A stretch of DNA of 4,664 nt. Origin: Naegleria gruberi. Taxonomy: Eukaryota. This document shows, in pieces, positions 1-4,502 of this stretch; position 1 is the first letter of the stretch, and the number at the start of each line of letters is the position of its first letter. The stretch lies in assembly GCA_000004985.1 (NCBI GenBank), contig GG739177.1; one strand, 5' to 3'. Below the pieces are notes generated by a model that was given only the letters and a program-made list of their open reading frames with translations, ran no database searches and was not told the DNA's origin. Made by a program: the position numbers and the translations under genes.

Positions 1-782
1 ACATAGGTATAATTTCTAATGGCCAAAATATATATCGGGAGCCACCATAAACCCATTTCAAGTGATCTTTCATTTGAGGGAACACTTGCTAACTTTCCAA
101 TTGTAAACTGTACAATTACACTGAATAATATACACGATAAATGTGTTATTCTTGAGGTGTTAGCTCTTTCAACAGCACGTCCCCGAGATTCAATGGCCTT
201 AATTATACCAATGGGGTCTCTTCTTGACCATTTCAAACAATCAACAAGCTTCTGCTCTGAATCTACCTGCTGTTTCATTTCAGATATCACTCCCAGATAC
301 TTTTCTGGTTGCCTAATCCCAGTTGTACTCTTTTTACTTAATGTTTTAGATCTGGGTCCAAACACTCTCTTAGTAAACTCCTTCAAAACTGCAAAACCAT
401 TTTTCAGTGGATTTTCCCAAAATTTACCAAATAAATATCCATTCATCAGCTTTGAGGTACTTCTGTCAAGTGGATCCAAAGGATCATAGGTAATTAATTG
501 GGGGAAGATGTTCGGATATGAATTTAATACTCTCTCCATTCGTTTGTTAATGTGGGAGAATTTAATGATGTCAATAGGATTGTTGGTGGAGAAGGTAACA
601 ATACAAAGTAACAATTCATCGGGAAGTTGATCAAGAGGTGCGGTGATAGGTTGTGATGTCATTTTTTTTGTAAACTTTTCAAATTTGTCACCATCACCAT
701 CATCAAATTCATCAAATAATTTTTGGAGACAACCTGTGAGTATTAAGATTGATTTATTTTTTACAAATTGTTCGTATTCCAT
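1..782 (-). CDS. F-box domain protein, 5' part of the gene; ATG at 782-780, reading frame still open at position 1 so the 3' end lies outside the window
   Basis: I reverse-complemented and translated 782..3 by hand: 260 sense codons, no stop. An in-frame TAA sits at 842-840 immediately upstream of the first ATG. The product begins MEYEQFVKNKSILILTGCLQKLFDEFDDGDGDKFEKFTKKMTSQPITAPLDQLPDELLLCIVTFSTNNPIDIIKFSHINKRMERVLNSYP... Residues ~49-88 (nt ~519-638) fit the F-box consensus L-x-x-LP-x-E-[IL]-L-x-x-I-[FL]...[VI]-x-K-R-[WM]-x-x-[LV]. The downstream ~170 aa matches no domain I recognise. The feature is not in the supplied ORF track. Confidence 0.7.
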   Translation of the reverse strand, partial: MEYEQFVKNKSILILTGCLQKLFDEFDDGDGDKFEKFTKKMTSQPITAPLDQLPDELLLCIVTFSTNNPIDIIKFSHINKRMERVLNSYPNIFPQLITYDPLDPLDRSTSKLMNGYLFGKFWENPLKNGFAVLKEFTKRVFGPRSKTLSKKSTTGIRQPEKYLGVISEMKQQVDSEQKLVDCLKWSRRDPIGIIKAIESRGRAVERANTSRITHLSCILFSVIVQFTIGKLASVPSNERSLEMGLWWLPIYILAIRNYTY

Positions 783-1368
783 TTCTATCAATGTTTGGTC
801 ATGAACTGAAAATTTGGCAAATAGACGTGTTGGTAATAGTTATCAAAAAAGTTATCAGCAGAACAAGAGATGTTTTCGGAGGAAAGTCCACCACTGTGGA
901 GAGCCATGATTCTTCAGAATGTTATTGTCCAAAAAGTTTAAAACAATTATCAGATGAAATATTTGAATTTCATGTTTTAAATGTGAAGATAGAGAACCTT
1001 GAATCATGTATTTGTGAGAAAATCAAGAGTGAGAAGGCTTCATCATCTAGAGAATATTCCAAACTACCTGTATAAAAGCTTTTTACAATTTTGTAAACTG
1101 CAGTTTCTTCAAATAAATCATCAAGTATCAGTTGACCACAGAGAAATTGTTGGAGGAGAAGAGAGTTTGAAAGAATTCAGAGTTTACTTTGTAAACATGA
1201 AGATTTTGTTGTAATTTTGTAAAAACAATTTGAAAATCAGAAAATTGTGGATGATCGAAAAGTGTTGAAGTGAAATTTGTAACGTAATAAATTGTAATTT
1301 CATTCCACTTTACATAAAGCCAACCTTAATTACAAACTTTTTCAGGTAAATTAGAAAGAACACTCAAA

Positions 1369-1764
1369 TCAGTAAAGAGTTGCTTCTTGTTGGAACTCCA
1401 AATCTAATAATTTCTTTGAAAAATCCTTCAAATACAGGAAAACCAAATACTGTTCACATGTTGATACAATGGAAAAGTAATTTTGAATGGAGAGCGTGAA
1501 ATTAATCTTACAATAATAATCGACTAAATATTTAATTTCATGTTTCATTGCCATGTCTAACAATCCAGAAATTTTTTCATTGTCGAATGAAATTCCATAA
1601 CAATATTTGATGATAATTTCCAATAATTCCAAATCTTCTGATTCATCTGGTGTGAAAATTCCATTATTAAAATCACTAAAGGATGATCCACTTTCCAATA
1701 GGTGGGTTTGGTACCTGTCATTATCTCTCTGGTTTGGGATCCGCACATGCTCAGATCTTATAAC
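1369..1764 (-). CDS. Terminal exon (or pseudogene fragment) encoding a BTB/POZ-like domain; stop codon at 1369-1371; no in-frame ATG near the 5' end, so the initiator must be in an upstream exon
   Basis: The frame is open from 1764 (in-frame TAA at 1767-1765) to the TGA at 1371-1369. The track's 'M' at 1746 is a GTG codon, not ATG. The translation ...RYQTHLLESGSSFSDFNNGIFTPDESEDLELLEIIIKYCYGISFDNEKISGLLDMAMKHEIKYLVDYYCKINFTL... aligns with the BTB consensus (..AHKxVLAAxSxYFxxMF.....[DE]..FxxLLxFIYTG......NVxxLLxAAxxLQIxxLxxxCxxFL). No upstream coding exon is found in 1768-2177 on the minus strand, which is AT-rich and full of stops. The next exon is therefore beyond or inside the gap, or the locus is a fragment. 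Confidence 0.5.
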   Translation of the reverse strand, partial: VIRSEHVRIPNQRDNDRYQTHLLESGSSFSDFNNGIFTPDESEDLELLEIIIKYCYGISFDNEKISGLLDMAMKHEIKYLVDYYCKINFTLSIQNYFSIVSTCEQYLVFLYLKDFSKKLLDLEFQQEATLY

Positions 1765-2177: not shown

Positions 2178-2227
2178 NNNNNNNNNNNNNNNNNNNNNNN
2201 NNNNNNNNNNNNNNNNNNNNNNNNNNN
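2178..2227. other. Assembly gap (run of 50 N)
   Basis: Exactly 50 consecutive N characters, the conventional placeholder for an unknown-size scaffold gap. Confidence 0.95.
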
Positions 2228-3654: not shown

Positions 3655-3673
3655 GCTTTTTTAACGGGATCCC
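3655..3673 (+). repeat. Left arm of a perfect 19-bp inverted repeat, gcttttttaacgggatccc
   Basis: Its exact reverse complement, gggatcccgttaaaaaagc, occurs at 4484-4502. The match does not extend by even 1 bp on either side. It contains a GGGATCCC 8-bp palindrome. Confidence 0.85.
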
Positions 3674-3717: not shown

Positions 3718-4483
3718 AAAACCGTTACATTAAAAATTTAACAAATTCTAATTTACAGGTTAATTTCCACTCTTCAACAAACAACATCAACAAAAAAATA
3801 GGCAACGTGTTACGGGCAATACCACATCTCCTCTAGCAAGGTCCTTTCTCTTCATCATGCCCCACCACACTACCAGATAAGACTTGCAAGCAATACAGGA
3901 AGCTATCTTCCGTTCACATGGTTGTTGCCACTTCTGCTCTCATCACAGTTCTCTTTGAATGACCTGTTATGGTTCTCATGGAGGAGGAAGACATTCCCAT
4001 TGGTGAATATTGTGTTCCTGAACATACAACTACAACCAATATTGTTTTGGTTGTAGAAACAATAATAAAACTTAAATTTTTTAAATATTTGTTGTTGGAC
4101 TTTATTTGCTTATTTGGTACTCAGTCCGAAACAACCTTCCATTTCAGTTCCACTTCAACTGAGTTGAGTTTGAAAAATAGCTCAACTTTAACCCTGCATA
4201 TCTTTGTCCAGACAATAAATATCAACAAACCAATGATTGTGGTTATATTTCAAGATGTTTTGAGTACATATCTCGATATTTGGAGCTTGGCATATACTGG
4301 TTCTGGTTTTATTGGATTTTGAAATTTTCATATATGTTTTCACTCAATTGAGGTTTTCAATCGACCTACTACACATAAACTGCTGAAAACAATTCTGATG
4401 ATAGTTAACATACAGGCGCACACCATACAAGTTAAATTATGATGAATCACTAAGTAACTATTCTGTTGTGGGTCATCAAAGTT

Positions 4484-4502
4484 GGGATCCCGTTAAAAAA
4501 GC
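4484..4502 (-). repeat. Right arm of the 19-bp inverted repeat (partner of 3655-3673)
   Basis: gggatcccgttaaaaaagc is the exact reverse complement of 3655-3673. The arms are ~810 bp apart. Confidence 0.85.

What the first reader, a model, noticed from the sequence alone, without database searches (positions are those of the whole stretch)
1..842. Largest real gene in the window is missing from the ORF track: minus-strand F-box protein running off the 5' edge
Hand translation of the minus strand from the ATG at 782-780 gives 260 uninterrupted codons down to position 1. A clear F-box (LDQLPDELLLCIVTFSTNNPIDIIKFSHINKRMERVL) sits at aa ~49-88, and an in-frame stop (842-840) lies just 5' of the ATG. 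The track instead shows a '+' ORF at 19..489, which is the antisense shadow of this gene. A 31-nt gtaaaa...cag stretch at 724-754 looks intron-like, but removing it would shift the frame into a stop, so the gene is read unspliced here. The C-terminal ~170 aa (…WSRRDPIGIIKAIESRGRAVERANTSRITHL…) is not a domain I can name.
Basis: partly seen in the sequence, partly recalled or inferred. Interest (0 to 1): 0.55.

Follow-up and report, generated by a model that had tools for sequence, protein, structure and literature searches.

The report
Known Naegleria F-box membrane-protein gene fragment
The open reading frame is real, but it is an already-annotated, truncated copy of a Naegleria gruberi gene for an F-box protein with a multi-pass membrane domain, and it was missing from the ORF list only because it runs off the end of a tiny scaffold.

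Summary
The minus strand is open for 279 codons from the TAA at 842-840 to base 1, against a maximum of 202 in 1000 shuffles. The quoted F-box-like string and the + strand ORF 19..489 are both present.

The window is a whole 4,664-bp Naegleria gruberi scaffold. GenBank already has a partial model here (NAEGRDRAFT_76832, start ATG 662-660). A 432-aa twin, NAEGRDRAFT_73574, on a 286-kb scaffold is 100% identical over 209 residues, and UniRef calls it "F-box domain-containing protein".

The window's own F-box is below Pfam threshold (E 0.12 to 0.01). However, paralogues pass Pfam (8.5e-8), and a family profile hits only F-box proteins in the PDB (Skp2, 1e-4).

The family is therefore F-box plus a polytopic membrane domain, with only 7 relatives among 1.84 billion representatives.

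Corrections:
- The start codon is unresolved (782 or 662).
- The last 11 codons are a frame-slipped reading, caused by one extra nucleotide near position 35.
- The GT..AG stretch is at 734-764, not 724-754.

Overall this is ordinary and already annotated. The membrane-embedded F-box architecture is a modest curiosity.

The parts
36..662 (-). Coding sequence from the annotated start (MTSQ..., ATG 662-660) to ...GLWWLP. It encodes 209 residues identical to the 432-aa twin NAEGRDRAFT_73574. The GenBank partial model NAEGRDRAFT_76832 covers 662-135 (176 aa).
663..782 (-). Its status is unresolved.
   Evidence: For: the frame stays open for 59 codons upstream of ATG 662, with P about 0.006 by shuffles, and G is enriched at codon position 1. 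Its codon-usage score of 0.19 bits/codon is like real genes and sits at the 95th percentile of stop-free chunks from the rest of the window. Against: both GenBank models start at MTSQ. No homologue covers it. The closest orthologue has a tRNA-Lys ending 47 nt before its ATG. Its GC content is 26% against 37% in the gene body.
840..842 (-). In-frame TAA that closes the frame upstream.
525..635 (-). Divergent F-box-like motif, LDQLPDELLLCIVTFSTNNPIDIIKFSHINKRMERVL. The LPxELL part is intact. The usual C-x-x-W is replaced by N-K-R-M.
   Evidence: sub-threshold Pfam; family-level F-box
144..524 (-). Soluble linker with two blocks conserved in the orthologue: NGYLFGKFWENPLKN (443-399) and KLVDCLKWSRRDP (251-213). 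No known domain was found.
75..143 (-). First hydrophobic (predicted transmembrane) segment, HLSCILFSVIVQFTIGKLASVPS.
1..53 (-). Family-conserved GLWW(L/I)PY motif (53-36) and the start of the second hydrophobic segment. One extra nucleotide at about position 35 shifts the frame relative to the twin, and there is a second discrepancy in the last 4 nt.
19..489 (+). Antisense ORF (156 aa). It is not a gene. It is an open frame on the opposite strand of the real coding sequence.

Best explanation
Window 1-662 (possibly 1-782) on the minus strand is the 5' half of an intronless Naegleria gruberi protein-coding gene. GenBank already lists it as NAEGRDRAFT_76832 (partial). It is a duplicate or allelic copy of NAEGRDRAFT_73574 (432 aa), and it is truncated because the 4.7-kb scaffold ends.

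The protein belongs to a small family that appears restricted to Naegleria. Its layout is a short N-terminus, a divergent F-box, a soluble linker of about 120 aa, and a C-terminal domain of about 260 aa with about 7 hydrophobic helices.

Most likely mechanism (inferred, about 50%): it is a membrane-embedded substrate receptor of an SCF ubiquitin ligase. The cytosolic F-box would dock Skp1-Cul1-Rbx1, while the polytopic domain fixes the ligase in a membrane and selects membrane-resident substrates.

Shown here: the gene is real, the reading frame is correct, it is homologous to proteins that pass F-box models, and the hydrophobic blocks are conserved. Inferred only: Skp1 binding, membrane insertion and topology, and ligase function.
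For: - Open frame of 279 codons against a shuffle maximum of 202.
- 100% identity over 209 aa to P0001 and P0002 of N. gruberi.
- Exhaustive HMMER search: 7 relatives, including a full-length match to N. gruberi NAEGRDRAFT_69101 (1.1e-18) and N. lovaniensis C9374_003567.
- Codon-position substitution pattern of 63/42/87 against the environmental orthologue L001.
- Pfam F-box-like/F-box hits in 3 of the 4 members that have an N-terminal region, best 8.5e-8. PF12937 is also precomputed for P0008 and P0006.
- The profile of the five family F-boxes hits only F-box proteins in the PDB: Skp2 at 1e-4, then FBXO31, FBXL5 and FBXW7.
- Kyte-Doolittle analysis shows hydrophobic segments in P0001 and about 7 hydrophobic blocks conserved across the alignment.
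- Family members on other contigs were called as single ORFs, so they are intronless.
Against: - The window's own F-box is below Pfam gathering scores and lacks the usual Cys-x-x-Trp, so Skp1 binding by this paralogue is not assured.
- Structure prediction was poor: mean pLDDT 39 for the single sequence and 52.5 with six sequences, and below 50 across residues 1-149. The three-helix F-box fold could not be confirmed.
- No dedicated TM predictor was available.
- No transcript or protein evidence was reachable.
- The window copy ends in indel-ridden sequence, so this copy may not be an independent functional locus.
Confidence: 0.8

Rival explanations
1. The window copy is not an independent gene. 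It would be an unmerged allelic haplotig or a redundant assembly fragment of the NAEGRDRAFT_73574 locus, or a truncated duplicate, with a low-quality end. This rival concerns the locus, not the protein's nature, so it is compatible with the best explanation.
For: The protein is 100% identical to the twin over 209 aa. The scaffold is only 4,664 bp and contains a 50-N gap at 2178-2227. One extra nucleotide at about position 35 and another discrepancy in the last 4 nt fit ragged read ends.
Against: The DNA of the 286-kb scaffold could not be fetched, so identity outside the CDS is unknown. The next ORF along (1372-1764) has no annotated protein match anywhere, so there is no evidence that the rest of the scaffold is duplicated.
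Confidence: 0.45
2. The protein starts at the reader's ATG at 782-780, giving a 472-aa product with an acidic 40-aa N-terminal extension, rather than at the annotated ATG at 662-660.
For: The frame stays open for 59 codons upstream of ATG 662. The probability of that is P = 0.006, and P = 0.009 for an open in-frame ATG at least 40 codons upstream. G is concentrated at codon position 1. The in-frame codon-usage score of 0.19 bits/codon is the best of the three frames, is typical of real Naegleria genes, and only 5% of stop-free chunks elsewhere in the window reach it.
Against: Both GenBank models begin at MTSQ. No relative matches profile positions 1-39. In the closest orthologue a tRNA-Lys ends at 206 and the ATG is at 254, which leaves no room for an extension. 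The extension has 26% GC, like intergenic DNA, and contains a GAT/GGT repeat that can mimic codon periodicity.
Confidence: 0.45
3. The F-box-like motif in this paralogue is a degenerate relic that no longer recruits Skp1. The protein would then act purely as a membrane protein of unknown function.
For: Pfam scores are sub-threshold. The conserved Cys and Trp of helix 3 are replaced (SHINKRM against SHVCKQW in paralogues) both here and in the closest orthologue.
Against: The LPDELLL core and the hydrophobic pattern are kept. The variant SHIN(K/H)RMER(V/I)LNSYPN is conserved between the window and the orthologue at 55% overall identity, which implies selection on it.
Confidence: 0.25
4. The + strand ORF 19..489 is the real gene and the minus-strand frame is the shadow.
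For: It is a 156-aa ATG-initiated ORF.
Against: It has no Pfam hit and no similarity to the family. The minus frame has identical and distant homologues, and the substitution pattern fits the minus frame.
Confidence: 0.01

Closest known systems
N. gruberi NAEGRDRAFT_73574 (XP/UniRef 'F-box domain-containing protein', 432 aa) and the partial model NAEGRDRAFT_76832
   Same: Identical over all 209 comparable residues. NAEGRDRAFT_76832 is annotated on this very scaffold.
   Different: The window copy is cut off by the scaffold end and has a 1-nt frame slip about 35 nt before the end. The public models start at ATG 662, not 782.
Paralogues NAEGRDRAFT_69101 (N. gruberi, 443 aa) and C9374_003567 (N. 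lovaniensis, 519 aa)
   Same: They share the architecture of an N-terminal F-box, a linker, the GLWW(L/I)PY motif and about 7 hydrophobic helices, and they align end to end.
   Different: Only 22-26% identity. Their F-boxes keep the canonical C-x-x-W and pass Pfam, which the window's does not.
Canonical SCF substrate receptors, e.g. human Skp2 (PDB 1FS1, 1FQV)
   Same: The family F-box profile aligns to the Skp2 F-box (DSLPDELLLGIF...VCKRW) at E = 1e-4. The presumed role is docking to Skp1.
   Different: Skp2 and other characterised F-box proteins carry soluble LRR, WD40 or other substrate-binding domains. Here the partner domain is a polytopic membrane domain with no detectable relatives outside the family.
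Membrane-associated F-box proteins (FBXL2 and Legionella AnkB via a prenylated CaaX, FBXL4 on the mitochondrial outer membrane), from my own knowledge and not tested here
   Same: An F-box held at a membrane surface, so that SCF acts on local substrates.
   Different: Those use a lipid anchor or a single targeting segment. This family would be integral, with about 7 helices. No CaaX box is evident at the C-terminus (...ILLKCY).
Polytopic RING E3 ligases of ERAD (Hrd1, Doa10/MARCH6), from my own knowledge
   Same: The logic of a ubiquitin-ligase component embedded in the membrane by multiple helices.
   Different: Those have a RING catalytic domain, not an F-box adaptor. No sequence or fold relationship was detected.

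Membership tests
F-box (Pfam PF00646 / PF12937) | The sequence matches the F-box HMM at or above the curated gathering score. | tested here: inconclusive
   The window protein alone scores PF12937 E = 0.12, 12.6 bits (cutoff 24.3). The isolated 66-aa segment scores PF12937 at 16.1 bits and PF00646 at 16.1 bits (cutoff 20.5), E about 0.01. This is below threshold, but the matches are the top and only hits and cover the right region.
F-box (Pfam PF00646 / PF12937) | Homology to proteins that are bona fide F-box matches, with the motif in the equivalent position. | tested here: met
   Three of four N-terminus-bearing family members hit F-box-like or F-box, best 8.5e-8. The window ORF aligns to P0004 from the LP motif onward at E = 4e-14. 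The five-sequence family profile retrieves only F-box proteins from the PDB, with Skp2 at 1e-4.
F-box (Pfam PF00646 / PF12937) | Conserved residues: L-P-x-E-(I/L)-L at helix 1 and a hydrophobic C-x-x-W in helix 3. | tested here: inconclusive
   LPDELLL is present. SHINKRM replaces SHVCKxW, with Cys changed to Asn and Trp to Met, both here and in the L001 orthologue.
F-box (Pfam PF00646 / PF12937) | Three-helix F-box fold. | tested here: inconclusive
   The AlphaFold2 models show helices at 15-25, 29-34 and 37-48, but pLDDT is below 50 across residues 1-149.
F-box (Pfam PF00646 / PF12937) | Binds Skp1 and assembles into an SCF complex. | not testable with these tools
   This needs binding assays or a multimer prediction.
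Naegleria F-box plus polytopic membrane domain family (unnamed) | Colinear alignment over the F-box, the linker blocks, the GLWWxPY motif and the conserved hydrophobic helices. | tested here: met
   The window itself contains the part up to the start of helix 2, and the rest is inferred from the identical twin.
Integral (polytopic) membrane protein | Several hydrophobic segments of about 20 residues that are long and hydrophobic enough to span a bilayer. | tested here: met
   Kyte-Doolittle 19-residue means reach 1.7-2.15 for four or more segments of P0001. About 7 hydrophobic blocks are conserved across the family alignment. Actual membrane insertion and topology were not testable.

The most novel reading that the evidence does not exclude
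Naegleria carries a lineage-restricted family of F-box proteins whose substrate-binding module is a polytopic membrane domain of about 7 helices. That would be an SCF ubiquitin-ligase receptor built into a membrane, a design I could find no description of. The window copy would be one (possibly allelic) member, and it may also carry an unannotated acidic 40-aa N-terminal extension.
Probability: 0.4. Interest if true: 0.45.

Novelty: new member of a known kind. Interest (0 to 1): 0.2.

Why it matters
For the genome scan, this is a lesson about the ORF track. ORFs that run off a contig end are not listed, so their antisense shadows can be mistaken for genes.

Biologically, the gene is already in GenBank and UniProt as a hypothetical or F-box protein, so the finding itself adds little.

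The one point worth recording is the architecture. An F-box is fused to a multi-pass membrane domain, in a family with only 7 detectable relatives, all of them Naegleria or Naegleria-like. If these proteins do bind Skp1, they would show how SCF ligases can be hard-wired into membranes in a deep-branching eukaryote. That would bear on membrane-protein turnover in Heterolobosea, including relatives of the pathogen N. fowleri.

Tried and rejected
- Fetching the twin's genomic DNA, to test whether the window is a haplotig and to read upstream of the twin's start. Exact look-ups failed for P0001, P0002 and P0004, so the N. gruberi assembly is not in that index.
- Two metagenome scans for closer orthologues, one with the window protein and one with the P0001+P0003 profile. 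Neither gave a confirmed relative.
- A single-sequence PDB search with P0001 gave only a chance hit to histone H3, E = 0.58.
- Literature. No paper mentions either locus tag, and no paper contains phrases such as 'transmembrane F-box'. The Naegleria + F-box search returned nothing relevant to this family.
- Neighbouring ORF 1372-1764(-), which looked BTB-like by eye. It has no Pfam hit and no homologue, so I dropped that impression.
- Intron hypothesis for the 31-nt GT..AG at 764-734. Rejected because the length is not a multiple of 3, which would shift the frame. It lies in the disputed N-terminal extension, which no homologue covers, so the twin's model cannot settle it.
- Rfam and tRNA scans of the window found nothing.

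Full report
**1. Observation**

Translating the minus strand from 842 to 1 gives TAA (842-840), 19 sense codons, ATG (782-780), and then 260 codons without a stop down to the window edge. The open run of 279 codons exceeds every one of 1000 dinucleotide-preserving shuffles of 1..842, which had a mean of 77 and a maximum of 202.

The quoted F-box-like string is at ORF residues 50-86, which is window 635-525. The + strand ORF 19..489 (156 aa) is in the mechanical ORF list, while the minus-strand ORF is absent because ORFs that run off an end are not listed (and the tool description).

**2. Where the window comes from**

The ORF retrieves two Naegleria gruberi proteins at 100% identity:
- NAEGRDRAFT_76832, "partial", 176 aa. 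Its only contig is 4,664 bp long, so it is this window, and the window is a whole scaffold.
- NAEGRDRAFT_73574, 432 aa, on a 286,411-bp scaffold, which UniRef names "F-box domain-containing protein".

The gene is therefore already annotated, and there is no neighbouring window to extend into. The full-length twin supplies the missing 223 residues.

Identity to the twin runs without gaps from MTSQ (ATG 662-660) to ...GLWWLP (window 36), which is 209 residues. That confirms there is no intron across the part of the gene shared with the twin's model.

Reading window 34->1 one frame over gives YIFWPLEIIPM. The window therefore has one extra nucleotide at about position 35, and a further discrepancy in its last 4 nt. 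This is typical of a ragged scaffold end.

**3. Which strand is the gene**

- The minus frame aligns to the paralogue NAEGRDRAFT_69101 at E = 4e-14, from the LP motif to WW(L/I)P. The + ORF gives E = 4.1 and has no Pfam hit.
- Against the closest orthologue (environmental contig L001, 55% identity over 183 codons), differences fall 63/42/87 on codon positions 1/2/3 of the minus frame. That is the signature of purifying selection in that frame.

**4. Is it an F-box?**

- The window protein hits PF12937 at only E = 0.12, 12.6 bits, against a cutoff of 24.3.
- The isolated segment reaches 16.1 bits for both PF12937 and PF00646, E about 0.01, which is still sub-threshold.
- The full twin gives nothing.

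The family context settles the question.
- An exhaustive HMMER search of 1.84 billion representatives found just 7 relatives: this scaffold's model; N. gruberi NAEGRDRAFT_69101; N. lovaniensis C9374_003567; and four predicted proteins from three metagenome contigs.
- Three of the four members with an N-terminal region match Pfam F-box-like or F-box, best E = 8.5e-8.
- A profile of the five family F-boxes retrieves only F-box proteins from the PDB: the Skp2 F-box at 1e-4, then FBXO31, FBXL5 and FBXW7.

The window's motif keeps LPDELLL but has SHINKRM where paralogues have SHVCKxW. The same variant is conserved in the L001 orthologue. It is a divergent F-box, not a chance resemblance.

**5.

Residues after the F-box form a linker of about 120 aa with two orthologue-conserved blocks, NGYLFGKFWENPLKN and KLVDCLKWSRRDP, and no known domain.

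From window 143 downward the protein becomes hydrophobic.
- HLSCILFSVIVQFTIGKLASVPS (window 143-75) is the first hydrophobic segment.
- The family-conserved GLWW(L/I)PY motif (53-36) opens the second.
- In the twin, 19-residue Kyte-Doolittle means reach 1.7-2.15 in several segments. About 7 hydrophobic blocks are conserved across the family alignment.

The architecture is therefore F-box + linker + polytopic membrane domain. Nothing outside the family resembles the membrane domain:
- Pfam gives nothing at E <= 10 for the full twin.
- AlphaFold2 models were too poor to use, with pLDDT 39 and 52.5.

**6. Start codon**

The evidence conflicts.

For the annotated ATG at 662:
- Both GenBank models start there.
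- No relative covers the 40-aa extension.
- In L001 a tRNA-Lys(UUU) at 134-206 ends 47 nt before the orthologue's ATG at 254.
- The extension has 26% GC against 37% in the gene body.

- The frame is open for 59 codons upstream of 662, with P about 0.006 by shuffles, while the other two minus-strand frames have 4 and 9 stops.
- G is concentrated at codon position 1.
- A codon-usage log-odds trained on N. lovaniensis and Naegleria-like genes scores the extension at 0.19 bits/codon in frame. That is the best of the three frames, it is typical of real genes, and only 5% of stop-free chunks elsewhere in the window reach it.

I leave this at roughly even odds. Transcript data would decide it.

**7. 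Mechanism**

The most likely function is a membrane-integral substrate receptor of an SCF ubiquitin ligase. The cytosolic F-box would bind Skp1 (established knowledge for F-box domains), and the polytopic domain would anchor the complex and select membrane substrates. Only the domain content is shown here. Skp1 binding, topology and ligase function are inferred, and I put that mechanism at about 50%.

The rivals are a relic F-box without Skp1 binding (about 25%) and, at the locus level, the window being an unmerged haplotig or redundant fragment of the 73574 locus (about 45%). I could not test the locus-level rival because the large scaffold's DNA was unreachable and the next ORF along has no annotated counterpart.

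**8. Novelty and score**

The architecture is a mild curiosity. No paper in the library mentions these locus tags or phrases such as "transmembrane F-box". Membrane-associated F-box proteins I know of (FBXL2, AnkB, FBXL4) use lipid or single anchors; that comparison rests on my own knowledge and was not tested. I rate it a new, uncharacterised member of a known kind, with interest 0.2.

Noticed in passing
window 3655-3673 and 4484-4502: A perfect 19-nt inverted repeat (GCTTTTTTAACGGGATCCC / GGGATCCCGTTAAAAAAGC) with arms 810 nt apart. It encloses the ORF 3969-4322(+), which has no Pfam hit. These may be the terminal inverted repeats of a small non-autonomous DNA transposon. I saw no obvious target-site duplication by eye.
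   Followed up: partly
window 1372-1764 (-): The second-longest open frame, 131 codons. By eye it reads like a BTB domain (LLEIIIKYCYGISFDNEKISGLLDMAMKHEIKYL), but it has no Pfam hit at E <= 1 and no homologue in the 5.8-billion-protein search. It could be a degenerate or orphan sequence.
   Followed up: yes
window 2178-2227: A run of 50 N (a scaffold gap) in the middle of this 4.7-kb scaffold. This fits a low-coverage leftover piece of the assembly.
   Followed up: no
window 135 (end of GenBank partial model NAEGRDRAFT_76832): The public partial model stops at ...ITHLS (window 135), although the frame stays open and identical to the twin for another 33 codons down to window 36. The reason is unknown. 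The predictor may have called a donor site (GTGTAT) there.
   Followed up: no
L001 134-206 and 254-1508: In the environmental orthologue contig a tRNA-Lys(UUU) gene lies 47 nt upstream of the gene. The orthologue's reading frame is broken twice by 1-nt shifts, once inside the F-box after LDHLPD and once after WSRRDP. That makes it either a pseudogene or an assembly with indel errors. The prokaryotic gene caller split it into P0005 and P0003.
   Followed up: partly
P0007 (JGI metagenome contig, 648 aa): In this protein, the linker and membrane domain, near-identical to P0006, follow an N-terminal region that reads like an Old Yellow Enzyme-type flavin oxidoreductase by eye, in place of the F-box. 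This is probably a gene-call fusion or a chimeric contig.
   Followed up: no
window 690-710 (-): A GAT/GGT trinucleotide-rich tract encoding DDGDGD inside the disputed N-terminal extension. It contributes to the apparent codon periodicity there.
   Followed up: partly
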